From: a virus
Taxonomy: Duplodnaviria > Caudoviricetes
Direction: 5' to 3' (one strand)
Virus record (IMG/VR): IMGVR_UViG_3300028887_000078
DNA length: 64,000 nt
Below are positions 13,697 through 49,684 of the stretch, one piece after another; position 1 is the stretch's first letter; each line of letters begins with the position of its first letter. A program made the translations under genes and the position numbers. The notes beneath the pieces are model-generated. The model ran no database searches and was not told the DNA's origin. It saw only the letters and a list, made by a program, of their open reading frames with translations.

Positions 13697-13723
13697 AAAG
13701 ACCGCCAAACGGCGGTCTTTTTT
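13697..13723. terminator. Bidirectional intrinsic terminator
   Basis: AAAGACCGCC-AAAC-GGCGGTCTTT with A/T tracts between convergent genes. Confidence 0.85.
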
Positions 13724-13726: not shown

Positions 13727-14378
13727 TGGAATTATCCATTTTGGTATTGTTGCATCAAATCAAAAAATATCAATGGAATGGATGTCTGTTAATTTTCCGA
13801 TACTTCAAATGTTTCTTGCAAATAATCACCAACTATAATTTCATTGTTTGAAATGACATTTATGATGTTGTCAACATCATTTGTGAATGCTGTACAAACC
13901 GTTTCGATTTTTTCTAAATCTGAAATGTTTTCTTTTTTGAATTTTTCTGCGGTAATTCTTTTTATCATTTCAGATTCATTATAATCATAATCGGATATAA
14001 GCATCCTTTTCAATGTTTTTTCTTTGCTGATATTGTCTTTAATATCAAGGAATTTCAAATTGTCTATACTTGCTTTTAATTCATTTATCCAATGTGTAAA
14101 ATTTATATTTGTGCAGTCAAATAATTGACAGTATTTACACAAACACCAATTTTCAACAAGTTGAAAACGTAGTCCATCTACACGTTCTTTGTATTTTTTC
14201 AATGGAACTGCCATTTCATATATCATTCCAATGCGGTTAATCGTATCGGATACGGACTCATTTGTCATTTCAGAAACCTTTTTAATGTGCGGCATAGCAT
14301 TATTTTTATATCTCTTTATTGAATATAATAAAAATCTTGCAAAAATACGCTTTTTGCAAGATTAAAGGTACAATTCCG
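13727..14378. mobile_element. Inverted-repeat-bounded AT-rich single-gene cassette A
   Basis: IR copies at 13727-13750 and 14356-14378 in opposite orientations. Confidence 0.55.
13789..14295 (-). CDS. AT-rich hypothetical protein with MPHIKKVSEM leader
   Basis: ORF inside cassette A. Confidence 0.85.
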   Translation of the reverse strand: MPHIKKVSEMTNESVSDTINRIGMIYEMAVPLKKYKERVDGLRFQLVENWCLCKYCQLFDCTNINFTHWINELKASIDNLKFLDIKDNISKEKTLKRMLISDYDYNESEMIKRITAEKFKKENISDLEKIETVCTAFTNDVDNIINVISNNEIIVGDYLQETFEVSEN

Positions 14379-14397
14379 TTTTTTTTTGTTTTCTGTA

Positions 14398-15057
14398 TCA
14401 TTGGAAAAACTCTTCCTTGTCGAACATAAAGAACGTGTAGCATTTTTGGGGGTTGAGGTTCCCGTGCGACACCCATTCTTCATACAGCCTGCTTTCAACA
14501 TTGGAGATGTAGAACATTCTTGTCATATTGCAGGCGGACTTCACATTCCACGTCGAAATGTCCTGATTGAATGTGCAGTTTCCCTCGAACATCCTTGAGA
14601 AATCTATCACGTTCGAGACATTCCATTGCGAGATGTCCCCGTTGAAGTTGCTCCCCGCGAACATAGACGACATCATCCTGACGTTCGATACGTCCCATAC
14701 CGACAGGGCGTTCTGCGAGTCGTCGGTGAATTTTGTCTGCTTGAACATACTGTTCATAGTGAGTGTGTCCCCGAACTCCCACATAGAGAGGTCGCAGAAA
14801 ATGCTGCTCCCCGCGAACATAGTGTCGAAGTTCCTGACGTTACGCACGTCCCATCCGCTTATGTCCATACGCATATCGGCGTTCACAAACAGATGCGACA
14901 TATCCTCTATCTGTGAGACGTCTATGAAGTTGAGGTCTGCGTCATTGCCGTTCGTTTTGCATTCATTGAGGCATATTCGTATCAGTTCACTGCAATTTTT
15001 CACACTGACTGACTTGAAACGAATTGACCTGCCGATTCCGCTTTCTGATATTTTCAT
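14398..15057 (-). CDS. DUF285/BspA-like repeat protein carrying the MRITES tag
   Basis: FNGDISQWNVSNVIDFSRMF repeats; starts MKISES. Confidence 0.9.
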   Translation of the reverse strand: MKISESGIGRSIRFKSVSVKNCSELIRICLNECKTNGNDADLNFIDVSQIEDMSHLFVNADMRMDISGWDVRNVRNFDTMFAGSSIFCDLSMWEFGDTLTMNSMFKQTKFTDDSQNALSVWDVSNVRMMSSMFAGSNFNGDISQWNVSNVIDFSRMFEGNCTFNQDISTWNVKSACNMTRMFYISNVESRLYEEWVSHGNLNPQKCYTFFMFDKEEFFQ

Positions 15058-15060
15058 TTT

Positions 15061-15690
15061 TCAAGTTGTTGGATTAGGCGTTTCTTCCTTCAGGAGTTTC
15101 TTTCTCTGATTGTTGAAAACATTGCGTGGGTATTTATACGATTTGGTATCGTCAAGTATACCTGTCACGTCGGTTATCAACCTGACATACTTGACAAGCG
15201 GTTCCATAGAATATACAAGCGGTGTTCCGAAAAACATATACGACATATCAATTATCCCCTCAAGGTTCCAACCGCTTATGTCGGAATTGAAGTTGGACAT
15301 AGAAAACATCATCTGCGCGTACTTCACGTTTCTGACGTCCCATTTCTCTATCCCGTGCCCGTCAAAATCGGACTTGTGGAACATTCTCGACGAGTTTATC
15401 AGGTTACTTGTATCCCAAAGGTCGAGACTTCCGTTGAATTTCGTGTATGCGAACATACCTTCCATTATCTCCACGTTTGAGACATCCCACAGGGAAACGT
15501 CCCCGCAGAATTTTGTGGTGGAGAACAACGCGTGCATATTGATTATCTGCGAAACGTCGAAGTGGTTGAGGTCTGCGTCGTCACCGAGTCTTGACAGTTC
15601 CTCCCTGACGCTTTTCCACAGGTCGACAGTCTCCGTGAATATGCGCTTCGGGACTGTCAGCGTGTTGCCGATGTCTGTCAGTCTCGCCAT
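15061..15690 (-). CDS. DUF285/BspA-like repeat protein carrying the MRITES tag
   Basis: WDVSNV..M..MF repeats; starts MARLTD. Confidence 0.9.
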   Translation of the reverse strand: MARLTDIGNTLTVPKRIFTETVDLWKSVREELSRLGDDADLNHFDVSQIINMHALFSTTKFCGDVSLWDVSNVEIMEGMFAYTKFNGSLDLWDTSNLINSSRMFHKSDFDGHGIEKWDVRNVKYAQMMFSMSNFNSDISGWNLEGIIDMSYMFFGTPLVYSMEPLVKYVRLITDVTGILDDTKSYKYPRNVFNNQRKKLLKEETPNPTT

Positions 15691-15691
15691 A

Positions 15692-15874
15692 TTAGAACAT
15701 CGGGTCGTCGTAATACTCGTCCAATCCGTCGTCTATCTCGTCGGTGCAGTCGTTTTCATAGACATAGTCGTCCATAATGTTCTTTGCGGCGGCAAGGGTT
15801 TCCTTGTCCACATAGTATCCGTCGTTGTGAAGCGAGAGTATGAACCTCGCGCAGGTTACAGCATCTTGTTCCAT
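15692..15874 (-). CDS. Small acidic hypothetical protein
   Basis: Operon packing. Confidence 0.7.
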   Translation of the reverse strand: MEQDAVTCARFILSLHNDGYYVDKETLAAAKNIMDDYVYENDCTDEIDDGLDEYYDDPMF

Positions 15875-15965
15875 TGTGATTTGTTTATTGACTATAAACT
15901 ATATATAACAAAAAGTTTTGTGTTTTTAACCGAACGTATAAATATATCATAATATTTTTTTGCAA

Positions 15966-16928
15966 ATGCCAAGCGTAAGCGATAAACAGCAGAATTTTTT
16001 CAAATGGGTGCAGTCCGTGCAGAACGGCACCGCAAAGAAGAAAGACGCCCCGAAAAGCGTCCTTGACGCGGCAAAGTCTATGACAAAGAAACAGGTCAGT
16101 GATTTCGCAGACCACCTTTCGGTGAAGAAAAAACGCAAACAAGTCAAGGAAAAACATTATATAGACAGAAACATAAAATTGAAAACTATGACGAAGATAA
16201 TGAGAATAGACGAGTTCGTCGCCACAAACTTCGGGCACAAACTCAACGAATCGAACAGTGAGGGTGAAATAGGTCTGTGGTCGTTCCCAGGAACCTATGG
16301 CACACTTTGGGGTGACCTTGAAGACATTGAACTAATCGACAGCAACGAGTTCGAGAATATGTTCGGGCACCTTCCTGAACACGCGAATTTCGATGAATGG
16401 AAAGTGAACCTCGACACGTTCAAAAAAGAACTTGGGGAATTTTACACAACCGAAATTGAGAAACGATACAGGGAGGTTTTCGGAAACACGTTCAAACTTG
16501 AATTTAGCGAATTTTGGTCTCCGAGAGAATACAACTTCAGGAACGACGTCATCTATGCAAAACTGATTGTCGGCAACAACGGTGAGTTTGAAAGCGCACT
16601 TGTTGAAAAAATGAACGAACACAGTGATGTCATTGCAAAGGTGATAAACGACAGGCATTCAAGCAGGTCTGGGTTTGCGTCGCTTATGTCAAACGATTTC
16701 AACGAATGGATTGTCAAAATCAATGAATTTGACACGCAGTATATCGGTTACGCTATGTACTATGCCTACTGTGCCGACACCATTGGAAACGATGTTGAAA
16801 AATGGAACGAACTCGACCTTGACATATATGAACTCGCTAACGGGAACGGACTGACAATGGACGGTTTCTGTGAACCGACAACAGACGAGGCAAAACGCGA
16901 ATACCAAATGTACTTGGATAAAAGATAG
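15966..16928 (+). CDS. Late protein: DUF3008-like N-terminus fused to an MTKIMRIDEF-initiated domain (internal ATG 16188)
   Basis: MPSVSDKQQNFF...SMTKKQVSDFA; late promoter at 15937. Confidence 0.75.
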   Translation: MPSVSDKQQNFFKWVQSVQNGTAKKKDAPKSVLDAAKSMTKKQVSDFADHLSVKKKRKQVKEKHYIDRNIKLKTMTKIMRIDEFVATNFGHKLNESNSEGEIGLWSFPGTYGTLWGDLEDIELIDSNEFENMFGHLPEHANFDEWKVNLDTFKKELGEFYTTEIEKRYREVFGNTFKLEFSEFWSPREYNFRNDVIYAKLIVGNNGEFESALVEKMNEHSDVIAKVINDRHSSRSGFASLMSNDFNEWIVKINEFDTQYIGYAMYYAYCADTIGNDVEKWNELDLDIYELANGNGLTMDGFCEPTTDEAKREYQMYLDKR

Positions 16929-16959
16929 GTTGATATATCGCCGATATATCTCCAAACTT

Positions 16960-16986
16960 AAAGACCGCTTCAAGGCGGTCTTTTTT
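16960..16986. terminator. Intrinsic terminator
   Basis: AAAGACCGC-TTCAAG-GCGGTCTTT followed by T run. Confidence 0.8.
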
Positions 16987-17127
16987 GTATTTTTTGAATT
17001 AAACGTCCGAGTTCCGATTCCTTTGGCGCTTATTCTGAAAATTGAAAAAAAAGCGCCCTGTTTCAAGCGAGGTTGTGTCTAACTTCAAAAACAGGCGCCT
17101 TCCTGCAACCGCCATCTGAACCTTGTT

Positions 17128-17619
17128 CTAAAAGTTGAGTTTCGAGTCTTCCGTGACGAACTTGTATTCCATACCGCATTTGTCGCAATACGCCCTGCAC
17201 GCCTTCGCCTTCTCCATATTCTTTATATACACCTTCGCCTGCCGTTGGTAGTTCTCAAGGGTTTTGGGTGTTTCCCTTTTCGGTTTGACAGGAGGCGTCA
17301 GGTCTTTCTTCGGTTTCACCTCCACGACGATTTTGCGCACAGTGTCCCCCGTCTTGTACTCGAAGTAGAAGTCGGGGAAGTATTCGTGGTACTTTTCGTC
17401 TATTATGCTGAAGTAGTTTATGCGAAGGCATTCGCTCCCCCATTTTATCACGGACGACGACTCGTCGAGGAACTTGCACACCTTGTACTCCCAACTTGAA
17501 CGGTAGATTATCGGCATCTTCCCGCAGTATTTGGCGGGGAACAACGGGTTGTAGTACCCCTGCTTGAACGGGGACTTCCTGCTTCTTATTGTATGTGGTT
17601 GCAACGACTTTATGTCCAT
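17128..17619 (-). CDS. Head completion nuclease, T4 gp4-like (TnsA-type)
   Basis: KY.G..PIIYRSSWE, WGSE, YFPDF, VEVKP motifs; late promoter at 17635-17642. Confidence 0.9.
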   Translation of the reverse strand: MDIKSLQPHTIRSRKSPFKQGYYNPLFPAKYCGKMPIIYRSSWEYKVCKFLDESSSVIKWGSECLRINYFSIIDEKYHEYFPDFYFEYKTGDTVRKIVVEVKPKKDLTPPVKPKRETPKTLENYQRQAKVYIKNMEKAKACRAYCDKCGMEYKFVTEDSKLNF

Positions 17620-17777
17620 AAACAGGTTTTTGTGTATTTATAAATCTATGCAATAGATAAAATAAATGAAACTTGCAGCAATGTGTAAAATATCACGTAT
17701 AGATTCTTAATAGTATTTTGGAATTGTCCCTTTAGTCTTGTACTTTCACTTGTACATATTTCAAACCAACAAAAAAA

Positions 17778-17802
17778 AAAATCCTGCTATTAGCAGGATT
17801 TT
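17778..17802. terminator. Intrinsic terminator
   Basis: AAAATCCTGCTA-T-TAGCAGGATTTT; near-copy at about 60248-60272. Confidence 0.75.
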
Positions 17803-17806
17803 GTTT

Positions 17807-18683
17807 CGGAATTATCCCTTTTAGTCTTGTGAATATGTTGATGAATTTTGCTTCAGATTGAACCACCGTGACATTGAAAGTGCTTGGGAACACTTGTTGG
17901 GATTGGGAATTAACGGGGTGGCGGCGTGACTATATTTCAAACATTATCTGAAATTTGTCTTGATGAAATCAAAAGTTTTATTTGTTTAAGCATCCTAAAA
18001 TCAATCAGATGCTATGCCAAATCCCAATATTTTAGATTTTTTATCGCTATTGAATAATTTGAATGTGAAGAATAAAATCCACAAGTAAAATACAACCTTG
18101 TTGCGCTTTGGTTTTGTCTATAACTTAAATTGCCAAACCCTGTATTTATTACAGTTGCGCCTCCAACAATTTTAAGTTCGTGTTCAAAGTGATACCAAGT
18201 GTTCAATGAATGGGTGTCCATACCGATAAAAGCGGTGAACGGAGGCCAAAACGCATATTGGTTTTTTGACACAGATGCCAAAGTAAATATACTATTGTCC
18301 CCTTTTCTTGTGACATTAGCGTCAAATTCTCTTTTAATCCATAGGTCTGTCTGCGCTATTGGGTACAGATTCACATTGTTTATCCACGCAACATTGCTGT
18401 CGCCGTTACTACCAGTTTGTGAAAACACATAGGCATTCAACGAACTGTTCCAAGCATATTTTCCATTGTTATACAAGGACGCACCGCTTATATGGTCTGT
18501 GATGTCGCCATAGGACAACGGCATATCCAATATAAGTAGTTGTTGTGGGGGGGGGCAATGGTGGCGTATCGGCATAGTATTTAGTTTTTGATATTTATAA
18601 AGTTAATTTTTCAAAAAAGTTGTATTTTTGTGACGTGAAAAATCAATCATAAATATATTACAAGACTAAAAGGGATAATTCCG
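17807..18683. mobile_element. Inverted-repeat-bounded AT-rich single-gene cassette B
   Basis: Perfect 24-bp IR CGGAATTATCCCTTTTAGTCTTGT at 17807-17830 and reverse complement at 18660-18683; extra copy at 17719-17741. Confidence 0.65.
18012..18575 (-). CDS. Late, beta-rich hypothetical protein (possible virion-surface or lectin-like)
   Basis: N/S/Y/W-rich; late promoter at 18592-18599; inside cassette B. Confidence 0.75.
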   Translation of the reverse strand: MPIRHHCPPPQQLLILDMPLSYGDITDHISGASLYNNGKYAWNSSLNAYVFSQTGSNGDSNVAWINNVNLYPIAQTDLWIKREFDANVTRKGDNSIFTLASVSKNQYAFWPPFTAFIGMDTHSLNTWYHFEHELKIVGGATVINTGFGNLSYRQNQSATRLYFTCGFYSSHSNYSIAIKNLKYWDLA

Positions 18684-18708
18684 TTTATTTTTTACAGGTG
18701 GCGTTCGG

Positions 18709-19062
18709 TTAGTCCGTCGTGCTGTAGAAATAGTCGAGTTCCTTTCCTTTGAGGTTGTTCACCGCGTATTCGTCCGCCTCTTTCCACAGGTCGTTGTAGA
18801 GTTCGGCGAATTTGTCGTTCCTTTCATACCACTGCCAAATCTTGTGGTTGAGAACCATCACGAGTTCGGTCAGGTAGATGTAGTTGTCCTTCCATTCGTT
18901 GAATGCCCTTTTGTAGGTGTCCTTGATTGCGTTTATGCCGAACCTGTCGGCGATGGTGAAGTCTTCCCAAAATGTCGTCTGCGGTTTGTAACCCATCTCC
19001 TCCGCCATCTCCCAATGCTCGTTGACTGATGACATCTCGTCTATTGTCATAATGTATGCCAT
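18709..19062 (-). CDS. Conserved phage hypothetical protein with MAYIMTIDEM leader
   Basis: TTFWEDFTIADRFG and YLTELVMVLNHKIW motifs. Confidence 0.85.
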   Translation of the reverse strand: MAYIMTIDEMSSVNEHWEMAEEMGYKPQTTFWEDFTIADRFGINAIKDTYKRAFNEWKDNYIYLTELVMVLNHKIWQWYERNDKFAELYNDLWKEADEYAVNNLKGKELDYFYSTTD

Positions 19063-19083
19063 ATCTCAAAATTTATACTTGCA

Positions 19084-19476
19084 TTATTTATATCTTGCAA
19101 GTTTCACCATATCAATCGCTCCGTTTGTCAGTTCCTTCACCTTTTCACAGAACGCCATATCGTACACACAAACCACGTTGTGTGAGACACTCTTGTAACT
19201 GCTCGGCGGAGAGAACGGCATAAGGCGTGAGAACTGTGTGCGTATAACCTCCCTCCTGTACAGGGCAGCAAGTTTCCCGTCCTTTGTCAGGAACTTCACG
19301 GCGGCGGGTGACATCTCATTGGAGTACATTGGGTTCATCACTTTCGGAACCTGTGTGTCAAACACCTCAACCAATTTCGGCATAATCCATAAAAACAGGT
19401 CTGCGGGTGTCATAGAACCGAACAGACATCCGTTTGTGGTTCGACCGAGCGTGATTTCAAAAAGAGGGGTTTCCAT
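19084..19476 (-). CDS. Late hypothetical protein
   Basis: Start METPLF at 19476; TATAAATA at 19494-19501. Confidence 0.8.
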   Translation of the reverse strand: METPLFEITLGRTTNGCLFGSMTPADLFLWIMPKLVEVFDTQVPKVMNPMYSNEMSPAAVKFLTKDGKLAALYRREVIRTQFSRLMPFSPPSSYKSVSHNVVCVYDMAFCEKVKELTNGAIDMVKLARYK

Positions 19477-19534
19477 TTTTCTCAATTTTTCATTATTTAT
19501 AGATTTTTTTATTATATTCAATAAAAGAACAATT

Positions 19535-19888
19535 ATGAAAAAGAAAATCAGAGCAAAATATCCGACACTCTTTTGTGATGAAAAGAAAGGCAGGGACAAC
19601 AAAGATTATTACAACACAAGTGGAAGACCGTGCGAGAGCGGATATACGGTGAGAGTGCCGTCACTGAAACGCAGCAAAAAGATTTGGGACAATTTTTACA
19701 AGTTGTTCCCATACATCAAGAACTCGTTGATGAACAACCGATATGTGTACCGTTTCGGTGAACCGACTTTGGTCGGTAATGTCTATGTGTGCAAGGAAGA
19801 GCGTGTACACGCGCTGAACCCGTTTAATGGCAGAGTACACGGTGTAGGACGCAGAATCCGAACGACAAAATTTTTGAAAACTTGGTAA
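19535..19888 (+). CDS. Hypothetical protein
   Basis: Start MKKKIR after early-type promoter at 19511. Confidence 0.8.
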   Translation: MKKKIRAKYPTLFCDEKKGRDNKDYYNTSGRPCESGYTVRVPSLKRSKKIWDNFYKLFPYIKNSLMNNRYVYRFGEPTLVGNVYVCKEERVHALNPFNGRVHGVGRRIRTTKFLKTW

Positions 19889-19909
19889 TAAAAACAAAAA
19901 GATAAAAAT

Positions 19910-20143
19910 ATGAATGAAGTGGTCACAGTAAAGAAAGACCGTTATTATATGTGCATAATGGACTGGCACAAATTGGGTTCGTCTTTCACAGAAGGAAAGG
20001 TTTACAAGTGTCACAAAGACCGTTGTATGTATGATGACAATCACTCCGAGAAGGCTTCGGTCGGTATGTTGTTCCGTCTTGCCACAAAGGATGAGATTAG
20101 AGAACATAAGAGAATGTTGAAACTTCAAAGTCGCAGAATCTGA
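19910..20143 (+). CDS. Hypothetical protein
   Basis: Ends inside repeat copy 2, where CGA has become TGA. Confidence 0.8.
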   Translation: MNEVVTVKKDRYYMCIMDWHKLGSSFTEGKVYKCHKDRCMYDDNHSEKASVGMLFRLATKDEIREHKRMLKLQSRRI

Positions 20144-20203
20144 ACAACGAAGTTTTTGAAAACTTGGTAAAAAATAAAACAAAAATAACAAAAACAAGCA
20201 AAT

Positions 20204-20482
20204 ATGAAAAGAGCGGTTTATTTAGGCGGATTCAAAGAGTTCAATCCCGAAGACACGAACACAAAAGATGGTGATGTTTACCTCTTTCATTCAAAAAAGG
20301 ATATGAAACTCCATATCGGAATATTCTTCAAACAGGATGAAAATGGTAGTTGGGGGTTTACCGATTACTTCACGGGAAAGCGGCATTATCCCTATACATC
20401 CGAAGTTATTGATTTGAATGAGGCAACACTTGAAGATGTTGCAATAACACTTAACCCAACGGGGAATCTGTCAAAATGCTGA
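20204..20482 (+). CDS. Hypothetical protein
   Basis: Lies between repeat copies 2 and 3. Confidence 0.8.
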   Translation: MKRAVYLGGFKEFNPEDTNTKDGDVYLFHSKKDMKLHIGIFFKQDENGSWGFTDYFTGKRHYPYTSEVIDLNEATLEDVAITLNPTGNLSKC

Positions 20483-20605
20483 CAAATGGCATAATAAATG
20501 CACTTGCAACGTCAAGCGCGGAGGCGGTGCTGTTCGGGATGGTTGTGGTCATAGAATCCGAACGACAAAATTTTTGAAACTTGGTAAAATTAAAAACAAC
20601 AAACT

Positions 20606-21202
20606 ATGAAGAATCTTGAAAAAGTAACGGAACTGATGTTCTCCGTGAACGTAAAAGACCTTAAAGAGCACATTCGCGGCAAAATCAAAGTGTTGAGAAG
20701 TGCCAATAAGGACTACTGTGGAAATTGGTGGTCGTTAGGAATGAAACGAATATCCGCACAAGACCTGTCTGACAAGAGAATGTACTTCGGTGAATGCAGG
20801 CACGGGTTCTCATTCGTGGAGGAGGACAAACCTTTTATGCAGGTCGCCAACCTCATTTCTTTGATAAGCAAGAACGACCTGCGCTCATTCATACGAAAAG
20901 TTGGTGAGAACCCGTCAAAGGAGGTCATCTTGGATTTCATCATCAAGAAACTCCCCGACTGCATTATGTTCCAAATGCGCGGGTTCCCGCACAATGACTG
21001 TATGGTTCTCTCGGAAATCAAAGACCCGAATGACTATGCCGTTGACAAGTCGGAACGCATTAAGGTCTATGAGTCCGAATTGAAAAAATTGGAGAAAGAG
21101 GTTCGTGTACTCCTAATCAATCAGGACAACATTAAAAGAAAACTCCATAACCTGAAGTTGTATCAGGAACATTATAACGAATTACAAAAAATCAAGAAGT
21201 GA
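20606..21202 (+). CDS. Hypothetical protein with C-terminal coiled coil
   Basis: ORF after repeat copy 3. Confidence 0.85.
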   Translation: MKNLEKVTELMFSVNVKDLKEHIRGKIKVLRSANKDYCGNWWSLGMKRISAQDLSDKRMYFGECRHGFSFVEEDKPFMQVANLISLISKNDLRSFIRKVGENPSKEVILDFIIKKLPDCIMFQMRGFPHNDCMVLSEIKDPNDYAVDKSERIKVYESELKKLEKEVRVLLINQDNIKRKLHNLKLYQEHYNELQKIKK

Positions 21203-21492: not shown

Positions 21493-21534
21493 AAGTCAAT
21501 CTGTAAAAAGTCAATTTGTAAGCGCCAATCCGCA

Positions 21535-21933: not shown

Positions 21934-21949
21934 CAAAAATATGATTGCA

Positions 21950-22369: not shown

Positions 22370-22378
22370 GGAATATAA

Positions 22379-22810: not shown

Positions 22811-22840
22811 TCCATTTGAAAGTGAAATCCGATTTTTGAT

Positions 22841-23239
22841 ATGATAAGCGACAACAACATATTGAAAGACTGCTGCTTCAAAACGAATGAAAACGGGGCG
22901 TACTTCAGCATACAAGGGTGCAGAGTCCATTTCTTTTTCTCCGTCGCACCTCCAAGTCTTATGACCGCCGACGAATTTATCAAAAAGCTGCAAGACAGGA
23001 TTTGCACAGGAAACAACCAAGTGATGATTTCCGAAAGTGAGCAGGAAGGTACGGTGGATGAGGTTTACGAGTGTTACGACGGGACGGTTCTGATTGTTGG
23101 AAGCATCCATTTCGACAATTATGCGTTTGCTTACAAGGCATACGAGACATTGGAGAATAGTTTTGGCAAGCATCCGCCTGTCGCGACCTGCATAGAAAAA
23201 CTCGACGGACTTTGCTGCGTCATTTTGAAACAAGATTGA
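22841..23239 (+). CDS. MISD-tag array protein
   Basis: Starts MISDNNILKDCC. Confidence 0.9.
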   Translation: MISDNNILKDCCFKTNENGAYFSIQGCRVHFFFSVAPPSLMTADEFIKKLQDRICTGNNQVMISESEQEGTVDEVYECYDGTVLIVGSIHFDNYAFAYKAYETLENSFGKHPPVATCIEKLDGLCCVILKQD

Positions 23240-23249
23240 ACAACAACCG

Positions 23250-23657
23250 ATGATAAGCGACAACAACATATTGAAAGGCAGTTGCAGTTTCCACGAAAAG
23301 GGAAGCGAAATCCATTTTTGGACAGTCAACGGTTCCGTCGGGTTCCATATTTTCGTGACCGATATGCAGCATCAAGGTATGACGCTCTCGGAGTTCAACC
23401 GAAAGATGAACGTCCTTCTGAAAGAGGGTCGAGACGAAATCGTTATCGGGGACATAAGAAACGGAACGGTCGTGAATGTCTTTACATACACGATGCCTGG
23501 GGGGACGCTCTGCGTCCTGATTGAGGGTGTATGGTTATGCACTACGGAAAGCGAACGCGCGAAAATATACAACTACCTGTCAGACGAGTTCGGCGAAAGA
23601 AAACCAACGGTATGGTGTATCGAGAACATTGCGAATATTTGCGCGACATTGGTATAA
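23250..23657 (+). CDS. MISD-tag array protein
   Basis: Starts MISDNNILKGSC. Confidence 0.9.
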   Translation: MISDNNILKGSCSFHEKGSEIHFWTVNGSVGFHIFVTDMQHQGMTLSEFNRKMNVLLKEGRDEIVIGDIRNGTVVNVFTYTMPGGTLCVLIEGVWLCTTESERAKIYNYLSDEFGERKPTVWCIENIANICATLV

Positions 23658-23668
23658 AACATAGAATT

Positions 23669-24124
23669 ATGATAAGCGACAGCAAGATTTTATCCAATTT
23701 GGTGAATGCGGACGACGGTTATGCACACATAGATTATTGGGGTGATTTCGACGGAATGCGCATACGCTTCGAGGTGAGGGCGAAAAGGGTTTTCAGTTTC
23801 TGCGGAAATATGGTTGAATGTTCAGTATTTGATGGTTACAACAGCATACAGAACATCCTTTTGAAATCCAACGACACAATCAAGTTCGTGTCAGGCAAGG
23901 ACGTCCGTCACGGAACGGTCGAGCAATGCGCGGTCATCAACGGGGAACTGCGCATAGTAGGGTATATGCGCGACGTGTGGTATTCTTATGATTCACACGG
24001 GTCGCGGATTGAGAAACACGTTGAAAGATTTTCAAGGATTGTGGACTCCCTGAACACACATTCGTTTGTGTGCATACACGAGTTATTCTTTCCGAGTGAA
24101 CACATAGAGGTGAAAAACATTTGA
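23669..24124 (+). CDS. MISD-tag array protein
   Basis: Starts MISDSKIL at 23669. Confidence 0.85.
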   Translation: MISDSKILSNLVNADDGYAHIDYWGDFDGMRIRFEVRAKRVFSFCGNMVECSVFDGYNSIQNILLKSNDTIKFVSGKDVRHGTVEQCAVINGELRIVGYMRDVWYSYDSHGSRIEKHVERFSRIVDSLNTHSFVCIHELFFPSEHIEVKNI

Positions 24125-24129
24125 ATGTT

Positions 24130-24552
24130 ATGATAAGCGACAGCAAGACATTGAAATCCGCAATAGACTTCGACGAGCGTGTGGATTGGAGTTACAACGA
24201 GCAAACCTGCGACCTGTACATTTCCGTCACCGTCAAAACGGCAAACGTTTCCTATGACATTCCAATCGGGGAATATGACCCTTTGTGTGAATGCAGGGAG
24301 TTGGTTTCCGAAGAGAACCCCCCGCCGCTCGTTTTCGGTGTCGTCACTGTTATAGTCGGCGAGGTGACGGACATATACGATTTCGGAAGTTGTCTTGTCA
24401 TAAAAGGCGTGCTGCCGAACGTGAATCCCCGTTCAAGGATTGCGTTCCACATAGATGACCTGAACAAAAACGGTTTCAACGTTGTCATACGCAAATACAT
24501 AGGTCGCCGAGCATACAGGTTCGACATACTTGAACGAAAGGAAACTATATGA
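24130..24552 (+). CDS. MISD-tag array protein
   Basis: Starts MISDSKTLK at 24130. Confidence 0.85.
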   Translation: MISDSKTLKSAIDFDERVDWSYNEQTCDLYISVTVKTANVSYDIPIGEYDPLCECRELVSEENPPPLVFGVVTVIVGEVTDIYDFGSCLVIKGVLPNVNPRSRIAFHIDDLNKNGFNVVIRKYIGRRAYRFDILERKETI

Positions 24553-25025
24553 GATTGAGTGAAACGAAAAATATATCGGCAGGCAAATTTTGCGGTGTCG
24601 TCGTGATTCCTTCTGAAAAATACAAGGACACATTTGATTTGTATGTCACTGTGAGAACTGTTCTTGCCTATGGTCGCCGTGTCGAAATGGAATCGGCATA
24701 CCACATTCTGCAAGATATGATTGCCAAAAAAGACAATGTCTTTGACATCATTGGGGAGTTTGTGAATGACAGCAGGAAACCGACAATCAGACATCTGCTG
24801 CACGGAAAGTTTGACTTTGTGTCATTGTCGAAGGACGACAACACCGACAATGGTTCAATATGCGTTCACGGAATTTTAAGAAGTCCTGACCTTGACGCTT
24901 TGTACGGGTGTGTGGACAAGTTCAGTTCGGAAGAGGTACAAATGTCGCTTGTCCATAGAATACCGAAACTGCCGAACCCTGTCGGAGGGTTCTGCGGAAT
25001 TGTGTTTGATTCCTATAACAGGTAA
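24549..25025 (+). CDS. MRITES-tag family hypothetical protein
   Basis: Starts MRLSET. Confidence 0.85.
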   Translation: MRLSETKNISAGKFCGVVVIPSEKYKDTFDLYVTVRTVLAYGRRVEMESAYHILQDMIAKKDNVFDIIGEFVNDSRKPTIRHLLHGKFDFVSLSKDDNTDNGSICVHGILRSPDLDALYGCVDKFSSEEVQMSLVHRIPKLPNPVGGFCGIVFDSYNR

Positions 25026-25121
25026 ATATCGGGAACCCCACTATAAAATGGAATGGACACGGAAATCAAAAACAAACGGAATTGTCTCATTTTAATCTTG
25101 TTATATATTCTCTCTTATATA

Positions 25122-25150
25122 AAAAACGCAGGCGGTTACCTGCGTTTTTT
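25122..25150. terminator. Bidirectional intrinsic terminator
   Basis: AAAAACGCAGG-CGGTTA-CCTGCGTTTTT; same stem at 30209-30239. Confidence 0.85.
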
Positions 25151-25204
25151 TTTTATTTTTCAATAAACTGATACACAATCTAATCAAGTGTATGACAATC
25201 AAGT

Positions 25205-25732
25205 CTATGACACGAACAATTCGCCATTGATGGTATTGATTACTTCAAGCGTGTCATTAAGGTCAATCGGTGAACTATCATCCGCATTCATTTTCATAAC
25301 CATATTGTCTTTGTCAATCATACAGTCATAGTCCTCCGAAGCAGCAAGTCTTTCGTCGCGACCCCAACTGTAATACACGCAATTCCCTTCCACGGTCTTG
25401 AACAAATCCTCTCCCGAATCCCCTATTTTGTTCACATAGTTCTCAATGTACTTGCAGATGGTGTCGGGGTCAAGTTTTCCGTCCACTCTCTCAAACATCA
25501 TTTCGGGGACATCATCCTGAAGGTCTCTGTCCACAATTTCTTTATAGAGAATGCTTGCCTCCATCACATAACCTTTGTCAAGGCAAATCTTATAGTATGC
25601 CATAAGTTTTTCATCCGAACACGCTTTCACGTTCTGCCTTCGCTGTCCTTTATGCCATTGCTCCATTTTGCTTGATTGGACACTCGCATTTGAGAGACTT
25701 GCCATCTCATCAATTTTCATTATATGCGTCAT
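25205..25732 (-). CDS. Late hypothetical protein with MTHIMKIDEM leader
   Basis: TATAAATA at 25759-25766. Confidence 0.85.
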   Translation of the reverse strand: MTHIMKIDEMASLSNASVQSSKMEQWHKGQRRQNVKACSDEKLMAYYKICLDKGYVMEASILYKEIVDRDLQDDVPEMMFERVDGKLDPDTICKYIENYVNKIGDSGEDLFKTVEGNCVYYSWGRDERLAASEDYDCMIDKDNMVMKMNADDSSPIDLNDTLEVINTINGELFVS

Positions 25733-25772
25733 ATTCGTTTTGTATATTTTTCTGTTATTATTTATAGAAACT

Positions 25773-25791
25773 GATATATCGGCGATATATC
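25773..25791. repeat. Dispersed double palindrome GATATATC-N3-GATATAT(C/T), representative copy
   Basis: Copies at 3736, 10712, 16932, 25773, 31289, 37637, 44981, 50491, 55962, 63219. Confidence 0.95.
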
Positions 25792-26239
25792 AGGCATTGG
25801 TTAGTTTGTGAATACTCTTGACGAACTCTTCCACTTCAAAATTCTTTGAATACAGAATACGGAACCTTTCTGCATAGAACCCGTTTTCAATCAAATATTC
25901 CTTGATTTCGTTTTTGAGCGTGTCGCACTTATTGGTCAGTTCATAGTCCACACCTCCTGCAAAAAACGCATTTGCGGAGTCGGTTTGCATCTGTATGATT
26001 TTTGAAAGGCGTTCCGACGGATTGGTCGCGTCATACAATATGAAAACATCATCGGTCAATGCTCTCATATATCGTGTGGTGTCCGTGTTGTTCACCGAAC
26101 AATCCAACACATTGGTGCCGTATATGCAGTTCTTGTCATATATGACGGTCAGTCTGATTTCAATTTTTTCACGGAACTTGTCGCAGGCGGTTTCAAATTC
26201 GCTTTTTGCGCTTATGATGTTTGTTTCAGTCAGTTTCAT
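25790..26239 (-). CDS. MRITES-tag family hypothetical protein
   Basis: Starts MKLTET. Confidence 0.85.
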   Translation of the reverse strand: MKLTETNIISAKSEFETACDKFREKIEIRLTVIYDKNCIYGTNVLDCSVNNTDTTRYMRALTDDVFILYDATNPSERLSKIIQMQTDSANAFFAGGVDYELTNKCDTLKNEIKEYLIENGFYAERFRILYSKNFEVEEFVKSIHKLTNA

Positions 26240-26382
26240 TGTGACACATTCAGACTGCCTTCACTTGTACACAATACCGATGTCGGTATACCTTTTCATC
26301 GCCTTTTCCGTCGTGGTTTTGTCGAGCGGTGTCTCAAGACCGCACCAGTCGCAATTTATGACCGTTAGGTGTCTTATGCCCA

Positions 26383-27549
26383 TTACTTCCTGTATTGGGA
26401 GTCCCCGCTTCCAAGAATGACGACGGAGGCGTTGTTGCGAAGTTCATACAGGTTCCTGCTGTTCGTGTAGGACATACAGGAGCAGATGAACGATTTGATT
26501 TTCTCTGCAAGTTCGCTCACGCTGTACTTGACTTCGGTCGGTCTTGAAATTCCCTCCGCTGCAAAGTTGGAGTCCGAACCCATAATCCGCTTCGCTTTTT
26601 CGGAACCCATACCGAAGTATTCGCGGTATAATTTCAGTGTGTTGTCCTTGTTTTGCGACAGACGGACATTCCCCTTCATAAATTCTTCCTCGTTAAGGGC
26701 AAATTTCGCCTCATACGCCGCCTCTTTGCATTCATTGAACATCTTACCGCACATAACGGCGTCGGCGCCTAAAACCAGCGATTTTGTGATGTCGTCGAAT
26801 GAGTTTATCCCACCGTCGGCGATGACACTCGTGATGTGTTTCGGTTTGAGGAGGAACTTTTGTCTTGTTTTGTTCTTCCGTTCCATCTTCTTTCGGATGG
26901 TGTTGATTTCGTCAAGCAGCGACGCCATAGGGTAGTGTACGCCTGTCGTGCAGGATGTCGTGCATCTGCTGCCCGTGCCGACAGAGACACGCACCCAATC
27001 AATCCCGTATTCGCAATAGTGTTTGTATGCGTTCGGATTGGCGATGTTGCCAGCCATAATCACGATGTGGTCGCCGAGTTGTCTTTTCAGTTCCTTGCAT
27101 ACATTGAACATCTTTCTCATAGTCCCCTGTGCGATGTCGATGCAGATGTGCACTTTCGAGCATTGGTGCTGCGTTGCACAGGAATAGAGTATGCGGCACT
27201 CTTCGGTAAGGTTTTTGATGTTGTTGTGCGTCATCCTTTCCGCTTCCTTGAGTGAGAATGAAACGAACGCATAGCGGGCGACGGATACCCTTGTTTGAAA
27301 GTCTTCGATGCTGTCGCTGTATGCGCTCCTCGGTATGACAGGTGTGAAATACGGTGTGAAATACTGCCAATTTTCACGGTCTATGACAGTAGCCATCGGC
27401 GCGACAAACACGGGCAGTTTCTCATCATACTTGTTCAGAATTTCCGTTTTCGGATTGACGTCACACCTGCTGTCTATGTCCGAAATTTCCGCCTGCACTA
27501 TTGCAACGTCCTTGAGTTCGTATCCAATTTTTGTCAGTTTGCTTTTCAT
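26383..27549 (-). CDS. IMP dehydrogenase / GMP reductase family protein
   Basis: APMATV, CIDIAQG, MAGNIA, VGTGSRCTT (catalytic Cys), IADGGI, GADAVMCG, YFGMGS, AEG. Confidence 0.92.
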   Translation of the reverse strand: MKSKLTKIGYELKDVAIVQAEISDIDSRCDVNPKTEILNKYDEKLPVFVAPMATVIDRENWQYFTPYFTPVIPRSAYSDSIEDFQTRVSVARYAFVSFSLKEAERMTHNNIKNLTEECRILYSCATQHQCSKVHICIDIAQGTMRKMFNVCKELKRQLGDHIVIMAGNIANPNAYKHYCEYGIDWVRVSVGTGSRCTTSCTTGVHYPMASLLDEINTIRKKMERKNKTRQKFLLKPKHITSVIADGGINSFDDITKSLVLGADAVMCGKMFNECKEAAYEAKFALNEEEFMKGNVRLSQNKDNTLKLYREYFGMGSEKAKRIMGSDSNFAAEGISRPTEVKYSVSELAEKIKSFICSCMSYTNSRNLYELRNNASVVILGSGDSQYRK

Positions 27550-27568
27550 ATTGCCGATGATTTGTTTT

Positions 27569-27769
27569 CTATTCAAGGTGAAGAAGCACAATCAGACCGA
27601 CTATCGCAAGGATTCCCACCGCTATTGCAACGGGTATCCACAGGGGCGCGGTGACCCACCACCAAGACCAGTCGATGACGTGCGTCAGTTTGAGGATTAA
27701 GAACACGATGAACAGGACGGTTCCGAGCGAGAACCCGCTGCCTGTGACTTTTTTTTGTTCGTTATTCAT
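27569..27769 (-). CDS. Small membrane protein
   Basis: LKLTHVIDWSWWWVTAPLWIP; two TM helices. Confidence 0.85.
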   Translation of the reverse strand: MNNEQKKVTGSGFSLGTVLFIVFLILKLTHVIDWSWWWVTAPLWIPVAIAVGILAIVGLIVLLHLE

Positions 27770-27780
27770 ATCAATTCATT

Positions 27781-27963
27781 TTAATCGTTCTTGTATTTGC
27801 GTTCCATATTCGGCGCGAACAGGCATAGCAGCAACGCCCCTATGACAGACGCCCACCATCCGAAAAGCAGAAGGACGGACACCAAAAAAATCGCACCGCA
27901 CCCCTTGTCGATGACGGCAAGGGGAGGTGCGAAGAATATAAGGAAAATTTGCAGAATGCTCAT
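27781..27963 (-). CDS. YqaE/Pmp3-family membrane protein
   Basis: IFFAPPLAVIDKGCG pattern; two TM helices. Confidence 0.75.
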   Translation of the reverse strand: MSILQIFLIFFAPPLAVIDKGCGAIFLVSVLLLFGWWASVIGALLLCLFAPNMERKYKND

Positions 27964-27981
27964 TGCACGGAATTTTTCAAA

Positions 27982-29508
27982 CTATGCGAGTGTCACCTGT
28001 GCGTATCTCTCGGAGAGCAACACGTTCAGGAGGTTCTTCCACGGGTCGGTTTCCTCCGACAAAACCATCTTGCAGACCGCGGGTGAATAACCGCTGACAA
28101 GTGCCACTCCGAGTTCGTTCTCTTTCACGGGCACCACTCCCGTTCTTGAGTTGACGTTCCAAAACACGAGTTTTGGGAGTTTGTAACCCTTGTCTGCATA
28201 CAGTTTCGCAATATGCTCAAAGAGGTTCACGTCGGGTCTTGTGTATGAGCGGGTCTGATAGTCCCATTCCGTTGTGGCGGCGTCGAACTCCATATCGGAC
28301 ACGATGAGCAACTGACCCGGCATATCCTCCTGCTTCATATTGTTCGACACGGCGGTGTCGAGCAGAAGTTGGAACGTTTTCTGAATGTCCGTGTTGCTAC
28401 ACTCGTTGTAATGGCGGAGGAATGATTTTTTCTGCATAGTGGTCATATTCTCGCCAAACTCGACGAGTTGCGGCGTGCTGCTGAAGGTGATGAACTTGTT
28501 GTGGAACTCACCCGTCATACGCTCCGAGAAATAGACGCACAATGCGCTCGCCACGTCCAATGCGGTTGTGGTGCTGTTCGGAATGCGGGAGGTCATAGAA
28601 CCCGAACCGTCTCGCACGACAAGGGTTTTGCAGTCACCCTTTACAAAGTCGGGAAGCGCCTTCCACATCGCCTCTGCGGTCGCGGTCTCATTGCCGAGCA
28701 TTTTCCACACGTCGTGCGGGAACACTGCGGACGCGTTGATTTTCTTCTCTCCCTTGACGAGGGAATCGAGATATTCGTTGCGACGCTTTTCGTCATACTT
28801 GAGGAACAGTTTCGCATAGCGGGTGTTGGCGACGGAGGGAACCCTCTCGTAGTCAATCTCCGCATAGTTTTTCGTGGAGATGTTGGTCTCCACAATCTGA
28901 ATCTTCTTGCGGAGTTCCGACAGGGACTTGCGGTAGGACGCCTCGTTCACAGTCACACCCGCCTTGTTCATCTCTCTGATGAGGGACTTTGCGAACGACT
29001 TTGACTTCTTGCCAGCATTCGGCGAGGGCATCCATTTGCCCATAAGGGTCGGGGTTTCGCTCTCAAGGTCTTTGAGGAACTGCGAGGAAACGATTGTGAC
29101 GATGTAGCGCTTCACCTTGTCGCTCTTGGTGTTGTAGAGAATATAGACGAGGTCGTCCCAACGTCCGTATTCGGGGATGAACTTCAGGAGTTTTACGGCG
29201 TCGTCCTCCGCGTTGTCGCAGAACCAAAGGAAAAGGTTTCGGAACGCGTTTCTTTCGCCCATACCGCCGCGCACGTCGCGGAGGTAGAAAAGGAACTTCA
29301 CGAAAAGTTCGCGACTTTCGGCGTCCGCCTTTGCAAGCAGCATCTCCGTGTGCGTGTCAAGCGATGCTTTCGTGGCACGGAGTTGGGGTGCCTTGAACGA
29401 GAGGTCGAGGATGTTCCTGCCTGTCGTGCTGTACATCTTTGCACCGTTCTCGGAATAACAGACATTGTAGTCGCTGTTCAATAACTCTTTCTTGATTTCG
29501 TCAATCAT
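27982..29508 (-). CDS. TROVE-like/vWA protein (DUF2828, Ro60-related)
   Basis: SENGA, RDVRGGMGER, YGRWDDL, KWMPS, MIDAS DGSGSM, SDMEFD, FWNV, SGYS. Confidence 0.9.
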   Translation of the reverse strand: MIDEIKKELLNSDYNVCYSENGAKMYSTTGRNILDLSFKAPQLRATKASLDTHTEMLLAKADAESRELFVKFLFYLRDVRGGMGERNAFRNLFLWFCDNAEDDAVKLLKFIPEYGRWDDLVYILYNTKSDKVKRYIVTIVSSQFLKDLESETPTLMGKWMPSPNAGKKSKSFAKSLIREMNKAGVTVNEASYRKSLSELRKKIQIVETNISTKNYAEIDYERVPSVANTRYAKLFLKYDEKRRNEYLDSLVKGEKKINASAVFPHDVWKMLGNETATAEAMWKALPDFVKGDCKTLVVRDGSGSMTSRIPNSTTTALDVASALCVYFSERMTGEFHNKFITFSSTPQLVEFGENMTTMQKKSFLRHYNECSNTDIQKTFQLLLDTAVSNNMKQEDMPGQLLIVSDMEFDAATTEWDYQTRSYTRPDVNLFEHIAKLYADKGYKLPKLVFWNVNSRTGVVPVKENELGVALVSGYSPAVCKMVLSEETDPWKNLLNVLLSERYAQVTLA

Positions 29509-29639
29509 TGTTTTTTGGTTTTAGGTTACGAGAGGCGGTTGTCTGTGTTTTGCTGCGTGCCTCTCAAAAACGCAACTGTGGAAATCCCACATTTGAATAT
29601 AATAAAAAAAATCGAAAATTTGCATTTGTGGAAAAAAAA

Positions 29640-30187
29640 TGGAATTATTCCCTTTAGTCTTGTAAACCAAATTCACAATAAGTTGAATTGGGAAACACAT
29701 AGCAAACGCTTCACCTTTGTGGTGGAAATGGTTTTGCTTTCATTGTGCGTAGATATGATATGGCAGATGGAGATGTTTCGGTTGTCGTATAAATAATGAA
29801 AATATGATTTGAAACTATGGCGCACATTAAAAGAATTGATGAATTACAATTTTCTGCTTCATCAAATGCACTTGATAATCTAATAAAATTGGAAGACGTA
29901 GAACGTAACATTTCAGACTGGGTTTGGTTGACAGAGGAAAGAAAAAGGTCAAAGACATTTGAAAGTAATATGCGTAAACGAATGTTTGATGTTTATTTTG
30001 ATTATGATTCACACGACATAACCTGTGTAGTTTTCTACGATAAGACGAGCAATCCAAATTATAAGAATCCAAAAATATTGAATGTTGACGGCGCTTCTGT
30101 TTCATTGGAAGATGTTATTGAAGAAATCAAGGTGCAGATGGGTTATTAAAACGAAACAATTTTTACAAGATTAAAGGTATAATTCCG
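29640..30187. mobile_element. Inverted-repeat-bounded AT-rich single-gene cassette C
   Basis: IR copies at 29640-29663 and 30165-30187 (opposed); extra copy at 30247-30270. Confidence 0.6.
29817..30149 (+). CDS. Late AT-rich hypothetical protein with MAHIKRIDEL leader
   Basis: TATAAATA at 29788; inside cassette C. Confidence 0.85.
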   Translation: MAHIKRIDELQFSASSNALDNLIKLEDVERNISDWVWLTEERKRSKTFESNMRKRMFDVYFDYDSHDITCVVFYDKTSNPNYKNPKILNVDGASVSLEDVIEEIKVQMGY

Positions 30188-30276
30188 AAAAATTTTAATG
30201 TACAGACAAAAAACGCAGGTGTATTGAACCTGCGTTTTTGTTTTTTACAAGACCAAAGGGGACAATTCCGAAAAAA

Positions 30277-48040: not shown

Positions 48041-48055
48041 TCGGCGTTAATTGTT

Positions 48056-49645: not shown

Positions 49646-49684
49646 AACTGTCAGATTTCTTCACTATATTTATAAACAGTCTTA

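What the first reader, a model, noticed from the sequence alone, without database searches (positions are those of the whole stretch)
13727..30270. AT-rich single-gene cassettes bounded by a conserved ~24-bp inverted repeat
Seen: consensus YGGAATT(A/G)TCCCTTTAGTCTTGT occurs 9 times. Forward copies are at 13727, 17719, 17807, 25077, 29640; reverse copies at 14356-14378, 18660-18683, 30165-30187, 30247-30270. Three opposed pairs each enclose exactly one unrelated, visibly AT-rich gene with its own promoter. The 17807/18683 pair is a perfect 24-bp inverted repeat. Flanks are matched T-tracts (cassettes A, B) or A-tracts (C), compatible with target duplication. In B and C the downstream side has the same layout: repeat, terminator hairpin, second repeat about 85 bp away. 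No transposase or recombinase lies in the window. Inference: a non-autonomous gene capture/shuttling or invertible cassette system acting in trans.
Basis: partly seen in the sequence, partly recalled or inferred. Interest (0 to 1): 0.82.

Follow-up and report, generated by a model that had tools for sequence, protein, structure and literature searches.

The report
Transposon-end cassettes in giant phage
The 24-bp repeat is the terminal inverted repeat of a jumping gene of the known IS1595 family, and in this giant rumen-type phage it brackets transposase-less remnants that carry single phage late genes, so this is real mobile DNA of a familiar kind in an unusual home.

Summary
All nine copies of YGGAATTRT-N3-5-TTTRRTCTTGT are present, and no other full copy occurs in the 64 kb. 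Three inward-facing pairs each enclose one AT-rich gene.

The repeat is the terminal inverted repeat (TIR) of an IS1595-family insertion sequence.
- In 35 distinct TIR pairs from related giant-phage and Bacteroidales contigs, 15 have perfect 8-bp AT-rich target duplications. Mismatched control pairs give 0.17%.
- Copies of one element share homology exactly from TIR to TIR, with unrelated flanks.
- Autonomous copies encode a DDE_Tnp_IS1595 transposase.
- In the window, cassette B still holds the last 28 codons of that transposase against its left TIR.

The window cassettes are therefore transposase-less, MIC-like or decayed cargo-carrying elements. They sit in the A/T tracts of intrinsic terminators.

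The cargo is phage-type. The genes have T4-like late promoters (TATAAATA). Four genes carry a 9-10-residue N-terminal leader, M-x-H-I-K-R-I-x-E-M, which resembles a T4 capsid-targeting propeptide. That reading is inference only.

I could not show that the three window cassettes still move, and I found no strict empty site. The invertible-switch and operator readings are not supported.

This scan has already described the same element family on other DNA. It is a known kind in a new setting, of moderate interest.

The parts
13727..13750 (+). TIR copy, left end of cassette A (A-variant, diverged)
   Evidence: sits in the T tract of terminator 13697-13720
14356..14378 (-). TIR copy, right (promoter-side) end of cassette A (G-variant); its inner part pairs in hairpin 14333-14363
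13789..14295 (-). Cargo A, 168 aa, leader MPHIKKVSEM. Member of a family of at least 173 proteins, mostly resident genes of giant phages without TIRs. Confident all-helical model with no informative fold match.
17719..17741 (+). Solo outer TIR (G-variant), followed by a bidirectional terminator
   Evidence: identical 23-mer at the promoter side of the cargo-B homologue in L188
17778..17802 (-). Intrinsic terminator hairpin between the two left-hand TIRs of cassette B
17807..17830 (+). Left TIR of cassette B; perfect 24-bp inverted repeat with 18660-18683
17831..17914 (+). Remnant of the last 28 codons of an IS1595-family transposase, directly against the inner edge of the left TIR
   Evidence: tblastn E 8e-5; 71-75% identity to the C-termini of the L068, L112 and L126 transposases
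18012..18575 (-). Cargo B, 187 aa, no leader, late promoter TATAAATA at 18592-18599. Atlas model resembles a LamG/ConA-like jelly roll (lead only).
18660..18683 (-). Right (promoter-side) TIR of cassette B
18709..19062 (-). Leader-type late gene (MAYIMTIDEM), 26 bp outside cassette B. Possibly the cargo of an older cassette whose 3'-side end is the 17719 TIR plus terminator.
   Evidence: inference
25077..25101 (+). Solo TIR (G-variant) followed by terminator 25121-25150 and the 3' end of gene D; no partner TIR found
25205..25732 (-). Gene D, 175 aa, leader MTHIMKIDEM, late promoter at 25759-25766; a one-ended cassette
29640..29663 (+). Left (promoter-side) TIR of cassette C
29817..30149 (+). 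Cargo C, 110 aa, leader MAHIKRIDEL, late promoter at 29788-29795
30165..30187 (-). Right TIR of cassette C (A-variant)
30209..30239 (+). Bidirectional terminator between the two right-hand TIRs; its stem resembles that of terminator 25121-25150
30247..30270 (-). Solo outer TIR (G-variant), next to the stop codon of the - strand gene that ends at 30277

Best explanation
The repeat is the 24-bp terminal inverted repeat of an IS1595-family (DDE) insertion sequence that circulates in gut and rumen Bacteroidales and their giant phages.

The transposase binds the two inward-facing ends and inserts the segment between them into AT-rich 8-bp targets, duplicating the target. In phage DNA those targets are typically the A/T tract of an intrinsic terminator.

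The window holds no working transposase. Its three paired cassettes (A, B, C) and its solo ends (17719, 25077, 30247) are non-autonomous derivatives and relics. B is an internally deleted 'transposase + cargo' element. A and C are TIR-gene-TIR units of the mobile-insertion-cassette type.

The cargo genes are phage-type genes transcribed late, from T4-like TATAAATA promoters.

Shown here: the identity of the ends, the target duplications in the family, the link to the transposase, and the deletion origin of B. Inferred: that the cassettes arrived by transposition, with transposase supplied in cis before it decayed or in trans from another copy in the phage or the host; and that the outer solo ends are relics of earlier cassettes at the same terminator hot spots.
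For: Motif and orientation
- Nine copies lie in the window against about 0 expected.
- Across 171 fetched loci, neighbouring copies within 5 kb are oriented +/- 41 times, against 9 (+/+), 8 (-/-) and 6 (-/+).

Discrete, mobile units
- Two copies on one 192-kb contig (L006, L042) are 87% identical exactly from TIR to TIR, with unrelated flanks.
- Many other element clusters, including transposase-less ones of 167, 327, about 550 and 1,300 bp, also have different flanks.
- Of 35 distinct TIR pairs, 15 have perfect 8-bp duplications and 20 match at 7/8 or better. Mismatched control pairs give 0.17% perfect. The perfect duplications are 96% A+T.

Transposase link
- The element L008:3187-6510 (duplication ATTTTTAA) encodes a DDE_Tnp_IS1595 protein (PF12762, 1.1e-31) plus an N6-methylase passenger.
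- Copies of that element in L014 and L135 have different duplications and flanks.
- Further intact transposases lie next to the TIR in Bacteroidales and Rikenellaceae contigs.
- One Bacteroides MAG has the TIR at the ends of about 20 contigs.
- Window 17831-17914 is the transposase C-terminus, directly against the left TIR of cassette B.
- Cargo-B homologues in two other genomic contexts (L187, L188) also carry TIRs and transposase remnants of other lengths.

Insertion sites and agreement with the literature
- Six relatives share the conserved gene and terminator left of cassette A. None has a TIR or cargo A there.
- Four of the five strongest terminator predictions in 13-31 kb lie next to a TIR.
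- Published IS1595-family features are 8-bp duplications, 25-bp TIRs, AT-rich targets and passenger genes (PMC8101967, PMC5704250, PMC11891212).
Against: - The three window cassettes have imperfect duplications (7/8, 6/8, 5/8) in low-complexity A/T tracts, so their own insertion events are not individually proven.
- I found no strict filled-versus-empty site comparison. The regions right of the conserved block differ entirely between relatives.
- No intact transposase is in the window, and the rest of this genome is not held. A source of transposase for this phage is therefore unshown.
- The tandem same-orientation ends (17719/17807 and 30165/30247) and the one-ended units (gene D, gene 18709-19062) do not follow from simple transposition.
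- Cargo A and C homologues elsewhere are ordinary resident genes without TIRs, so how they were captured is unknown.
Confidence: 0.85

Rival explanations
1. Recombination cassettes. The repeats, together with the conserved late-promoter and leader module, act mainly as short homology patches. Co-infecting phages swap single genes at them by homologous recombination, as proposed for the promoter/stem-loop (PeSL) cassettes of T4-type phages (recalled from memory, not looked up here). On this reading transposition is only the distant origin of the repeats.
For: - The window duplications are imperfect.
- Gene D and gene 18709-19062 have a TIR only on the 3' side.
- The roughly 60-nt promoter and leader module is 83% identical between unrelated contigs.
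- The cargo-C homologue in L196 has a TIR against its stop codon in the opposite orientation.
- Loci downstream of the conserved block differ in every relative.
Against: - The repeats are inverted, so recombination between the two ends of one cassette would invert it, not excise it.
- 24 bp is short for homologous recombination.
- Perfect 8-bp duplications, a cognate transposase and a transposase remnant inside cassette B are all expected from transposition and not from recombination.
Confidence: 0.1
2. Operator or promoter. The motif is a binding site for a phage regulator or RNA polymerase and controls the enclosed genes.
For: - Three copies lie 60-153 nt upstream of a gene, in sense orientation.
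- The bipartite shape with a variable spacer resembles a two-box site.
Against: - Six of the nine copies point into the 3' ends of genes or straight into a terminator.
- Nothing downstream of the motif is conserved.
- The genes already have TATAAATA promoters.
- The same motif bounds transposase and TnpB genes with target duplications, and it ends contigs in bacterial MAGs.
Confidence: 0.02
3. Invertible switch. A site-specific recombinase flips each cassette between the inverted repeats.
For: Only that the repeats are inverted and enclose single genes.
Against: - Each cargo gene carries its own promoter inside the repeats, so flipping would change nothing obvious.
- No invertase is nearby.
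- Homologous elements show fixed internal order relative to the transposase remnant.
Confidence: 0.02

Closest known systems
Transporter insertion sequences (tIS) of the IS1595 family, e.g. MTnSag1/tISSag10 and tISCpe8 (PMC5704250; Siguier, Gagnevin and Chandler 2009 as cited in PMC3129680 and PMC11891212)
   Same: - DDE_Tnp_IS1595 transposase in the autonomous relatives.
- TIRs of 24-25 bp.
- 8-bp target duplication.
- Preference for AT-rich targets.
- One or a few passenger genes beside the transposase.
   Different: - The elements live in giant phage genomes as well as in Bacteroidales chromosomes.
- The passengers are phage-type genes with T4-like late promoters, often with a short N-terminal leader, rather than resistance genes or regulators.
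- In this window the transposase is gone, or reduced to 28 codons.
Mobile insertion cassettes (MICs, e.g. MIC231 of IS231), MITEs and solo IRs (PMC3129680)
   Same: The ends of a known IS bracket passenger DNA without a transposase. Related transposase-less units occur at several sites with different flanks.
   Different: - Trans-mobilisation of the window's own cassettes is not shown.
- B is demonstrably a decayed autonomous element.
- The host replicon is a lytic-type giant phage.
Capsid-targeting sequences of T4 internal proteins (PMC9026906)
   Same: The leader is 9-10 N-terminal residues ending in [I/V/L]-x-E, placed on otherwise unrelated small late proteins. Related giant phages encode a gp21-like Peptidase_S77 domain.
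   Different: No sequence similarity to the T4 leaders. No proteomic or genetic evidence. In the cargo-A family the leader aligns with a different N-terminal tag (MKKITES...) in other phages.
PeSL (promoter-early stem-loop) cassettes of T4-type phages (from memory, not looked up here)
   Same: Single small genes in hyperplastic regions, each with its own promoter and terminator, bounded by a repeated short element.
   Different: PeSLs are direct repeats made of a promoter and a stem-loop, and they work by recombination. Here the repeats are inverted transposon ends with target duplications.

Membership tests
IS1595 family of insertion sequences | DDE transposase with the ISXO2-like/IS1595 catalytic domain | tested here: met
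   PF12762 at 1.1e-31 in L008:5519-6463, inside a TIR pair. Homologues next to TIRs in L014, L068, L070, L112, L126 and L135. In the window only a 28-codon C-terminal remnant at 17831-17914.
IS1595 family of insertion sequences | N-terminal zinc-ribbon (Zn_Tnp_IS1595) | tested here: inconclusive
   PF12760 scores 16.8 bits, below the 25.4-bit cut-off. A CPKCG motif is visible in the N-terminus.
IS1595 family of insertion sequences | 8-bp target-site duplication | tested here: met
   15 of 35 distinct pairs are perfect 8/8, against 0.17% of controls. The window cassettes match only 7/8, 6/8 and 5/8.
IS1595 family of insertion sequences | Short terminal inverted repeats (about 20-30 bp) | tested here: met
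   24 bp, perfect in cassette B. Homology between copies stops at the TIR ends.
IS1595 family, ISNha5-type subgroup (ends CGGnnTT, recalled from the ISfinder table) | Subgroup assignment by transposase phylogeny and end sequence | not testable with these tools
   The ends read CGGAATT, which fits my recollection. ISfinder is not available here, so this is only a lead.
Mobile insertion cassette (MIC) | IS-type TIRs enclosing passenger gene(s) with no transposase | tested here: met
   Cassettes A, B and C.
Mobile insertion cassette (MIC) | Mobilised in trans by the cognate transposase | not tested
   Only indirect evidence: transposase-less relatives occur with different flanks and perfect duplications. 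This needs a transposition assay.
PeSL-type recombination cassettes | Direct repeats consisting of an early promoter plus a stem-loop | tested here: not met
   The repeats are inverted, carry no promoter consensus and have target duplications.
T4-type capsid-targeted internal proteins | N-terminal propeptide removed by the prohead protease, and the protein present in virions | not testable with these tools
   Only the motif shape ([IVL]-x-E at residues 7-9) and Peptidase_S77 in relatives.

The most novel reading that the evidence does not exclude
This IS1595 lineage has become a vehicle specialised for giant phages. It carries late-expressed proteins tagged with a capsid-targeting leader, so that swappable proteins are packaged and injected (possible counter-defence or host-takeover factors). 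It shuttles them between megaphages and their Bacteroidales hosts. TnpB rides in the same ends, in parallel with Fanzor in eukaryotic TIR transposons.
Probability: 0.2. Interest if true: 0.75.

Novelty: new variant of a known kind. Interest (0 to 1): 0.5.

Why it matters
Insertion sequences are thought to be rare and short-lived in virulent phage genomes. Here one IS family has repeatedly seeded a giant phage with single-gene units made of phage-type late genes. The same ends occur in the likely hosts.

This gives a concrete, testable route for gene exchange between giant phages and gut or rumen Bacteroidales, and for the turnover of hypervariable regions next to terminators. It also marks a set of small tagged proteins as candidates for virion-delivered factors.

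For annotation, it explains several AT-rich 'orphan' islands and solo repeats in these genomes.

Tried and rejected
- Megablast of 13-31 kb against GenBank phages: no match.
- No whole genome is held for the window, so the rest of the phage could not be searched for a transposase.
- Relatives sought in IMG/VR through two flanking proteins: one distant hit and none.
- A metagenome scan found six relatives of the block left of cassette A. The DNA beyond the terminator differs in all of them, so no strict empty site was obtained.
- No partner TIR was found for 25077 or upstream of 18709-19062, even at 5 mismatches.
- Pfam and PHROGs give nothing for cargo A, B, C, D or 18709-19062.
- The cargo A model is confident (pLDDT 88). 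Foldseek against the PDB gave no hit at E <= 0.001, and VIA-align gave at best Z 6.7 among helical bundles, which is uninformative.
- Rfam: no family in 12-32 kb.
- I considered the TnsA-like ORF next to TIR 17719 as a possible mobilising enzyme and rejected it. The family's transposase is a DDE enzyme, and the ORF lies outside every TIR pair.
- A Bacteroidetes -33/-7 promoter reading of the motif was considered and dropped, because the spacing and flanks do not fit.
- A literature search for these cassettes in jumbo phages found nothing.
Full report
**1. Observation**

A fixed-length search finds only three copies. Reading the nine stated sites shows the motif at every one. It is bipartite, YGGAATTRT and TTTRRTCTTGT, separated by 3-5 nt.
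- A fuzzy search finds exactly the nine copies.
- A spacer-aware scan finds 11 sites at 3 mismatches or fewer, against 0.3 in shuffles. They are the nine, a degenerate one at 33101-33124, and a probable chance hit at 6043.
- All + copies lie on the left and all - copies on the right of the enclosed genes.
- The three paired units are 652, 877 and 548 bp, with GC of 28-36% against 42-48% outside.
- The strongest terminator predictions of the region sit beside the copies, at 13697-13720, 17778-17802, 25121-25150 and 30209-30239.

**2. What the repeat is**

The pattern occurs in 50 IMG/VR loci, many on contigs of 190-413 kb. Two-copy loci there are always '+ then -'. Over 171 loci, neighbouring copies within 5 kb are oriented +/- 41 times, against 9, 8 and 6 for the other arrangements.

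Two copies on one 192-kb contig are 87% identical from TIR to TIR and unrelated outside. Many further clusters behave the same way, including transposase-less units of 167, 327, about 550 and 1,300 bp.

Immediately outside C-GGAATT...AATTCC-G, 15 of 35 distinct pairs have perfect 8-bp direct repeats, for example AGTGATTT, TATTAAAT and AAAGAAAT. Mismatched controls give 0.17%.

A 3.3-kb element (L008) with duplication ATTTTTAA encodes a DDE_Tnp_IS1595 transposase (PF12762, 1.1e-31) and an N6-methylase passenger. Near-identical copies have other duplications and flanks.

The TIR is abundant in Bacteroidales MAGs from rumen, horse and other guts. It ends about 20 contigs of one Bacteroides MAG, as a multi-copy IS would.

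These features match the published description of the IS1595 family and its passenger-carrying members: 8-bp duplications, 25-bp TIRs, AT-rich targets and tIS (PMC8101967, PMC5704250, PMC11891212, PMC3129680).

**3. The window's cassettes**

No intact transposase or TnpB lies in the window. However, 17831-17914, directly against the inner edge of TIR 17807-17830, encodes the last 28 residues of the transposase, 71-75% identical to the L068, L112 and L126 proteins.

Cassette B homologues lie in two other contexts.
- L187 has both TIRs decayed and a longer, frameshifted transposase remnant.
- L188 has a perfect TIR at the promoter side and a remnant, but no far TIR.

B therefore descends from an autonomous 'transposase -> <- cargo' element. 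That arrangement is still intact in L112 and L136. The transposase decayed independently in each host genome.

Cassettes A and C keep no remnant. Cargo A belongs to a family of at least 173 proteins that are mostly ordinary resident genes of giant phages without TIRs. The cargo C homologue in L196 lies just outside a 350-bp TIR element. A and C therefore look like captured phage genes, but I cannot say how they were captured.

Six relatives share the gene and terminator to the left of cassette A. None has a TIR or cargo A there, and what follows differs in each. The site is a hypervariable junction, not a clean empty site.

**4. Extra ends**

The solo copies 17719, 25077 and 30247 are all 'G-variants' (GGAATTGT). 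Each is followed by a bidirectional terminator. Two of the terminator stems are alike.

The paired inner ends of B and C are 'A-variants'. Gene D (25205-25732) and gene 18709-19062 have the layout promoter - gene - terminator - TIR, with no promoter-side TIR.

My reading, which is inference, is that these are relics of older cassettes at the same terminator hot spots. Cassette B inserted between an older cargo gene (18709-19062) and that gene's terminator. This is not proven.

**5. Cargo features**

TATAAATA occurs 19 times in the window against 4.2 in shuffles, mostly 15-32 nt before start codons. That is the T4 late-promoter consensus, recalled from established knowledge. Cargo B, C, D and 18709-19062 have it. 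Cargo A has a variant, TATAAAAATA.

A, C, D and 18709-19062 begin M-x-[HY]-I-[KM]-[RKT]-[IV]-x-E-[ML]. All four lie within about 100 bp of a TIR.

The leader is not part of the IS.
- In a 388-kb relative, 19 genes carry it and only one of them lies in a TIR pair.
- In the cargo-A family it aligns with a different tag, MKKITES.

The leader's length and its [IVL]-x-E ending resemble the 10-residue capsid-targeting sequence of T4 internal proteins, which gp21 cuts after L/I-x-E (PMC9026906). Five related giant-phage contigs match the gp21-like Peptidase_S77 domain, four of them above the family cut-off. This is a hypothesis only.

Cargo B may be a LamG/ConA-like jelly roll, judging from Atlas structure neighbours at TM 0.6-0.69. 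That is a lead, not a finding.

**6. Rivals**

- An operator or promoter role is contradicted by orientation, by the lack of conserved downstream sequence, and by the transposon evidence.
- An invertible switch has nothing in its favour beyond the inverted repeats.
- Homologous-recombination shuffling at the TIR and at the conserved promoter and leader module (83% identity over about 60 nt between unrelated contigs) may act in addition. It could explain the one-ended units, but it cannot explain the duplications or the transposase.

**7. Novelty**

The element type (IS1595 tIS, MIC, MITE, solo IR) is known. The setting and the cargo are unusual, and my literature searches did not turn them up.

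Earlier notes and follow-ups of this scan describe the same family on other DNA and on this same stretch. I reached the reading before consulting them and tested it independently. They add no evidence, but they mean this is not a first sighting within the scan.

Noticed in passing
window 87-43704: About 36 small ORFs start with M-[RK]-[ILV]-[STN]-[ED] (MRISE, MRLTE, MKITE...), many in long same-strand arrays at 30-44 kb. This is a second N-terminal tag, much commoner than the cargo leader. Other readers of this scan noted it too.
   Followed up: partly
window, e.g. upstream of 2174, 10641(-), 14295(-), 33949(-), 37058(-), 37583(-): A second promoter-like motif, (C)ATTATATTCAA(T), sits 10-35 nt before many small genes and before cargo A. 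It also occurs before cargo genes in L001 and L016.
   Followed up: no
L006:5365-6678, L042:6053-7366, L002:5262-6544, L040:51-1340, L174:8289-9577: A complete TnpB gene (OrfB_IS605 plus Cas12f1-like TNB) fills an element bounded by the same IS1595-type TIRs, with 8-bp duplications and no TnpA. Its stop codon lies in or at the TIR. MITEs of about 327 bp (L011, L021, L028, L032) keep its 3' end. TnpB riding in a DDE transposon recalls Fanzor in eukaryotic TIR transposons.
   Followed up: partly
window 17128-17619 (-): A 163-aa ORF with a TnsA-like endonuclease N-terminal domain (PF08722, 5e-18) and its own TATAAATA, just outside TIR 17719. It is probably a free-standing nuclease unrelated to the cassettes.
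   Followed up: no
window 56263-57624 (+): A homing-endonuclease-like ORF (phrog_3339, 6.5e-34) in a 30%-GC island. It lies between a ClpB-like AAA gene and a type II topoisomerase B-like gene that starts at 57621.
   Followed up: no
window 18541-18549: A run of nine G (C9 on the coding strand) in codons 7-10 of cargo B. It is conserved as C9 and C7 in homologues L187 and L188. It encodes Pro-Pro-Pro and is a possible slippage site.
   Followed up: partly
L196:3001-3689: The cargo-C homologue (88% nt identity) has no TIR upstream. A TIR lies against its stop codon in the opposite orientation to the window's, opening a separate 350-bp TIR element.
   Followed up: partly
window 33101-33124 (+): A degenerate TIR-like sequence (2 mismatches to the half-sites) inside or at the end of a small - strand ORF. 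It may be a relic or chance.
   Followed up: no
window 46442-49660 (-): Two adjacent 534-aa ORFs. The first has collagen-like tail-fibre hits; the second has no family. A long spurious ORF lies on the opposite strand.
   Followed up: no
window 13789-14295 (-) and P0004-P0123: Cargo A belongs to a large, well-conserved family of about 170-aa helical proteins of giant phages. The family includes invariant W50-C51 and nearly invariant Cys residues. The model is confident but no known fold was found.
   Followed up: yes
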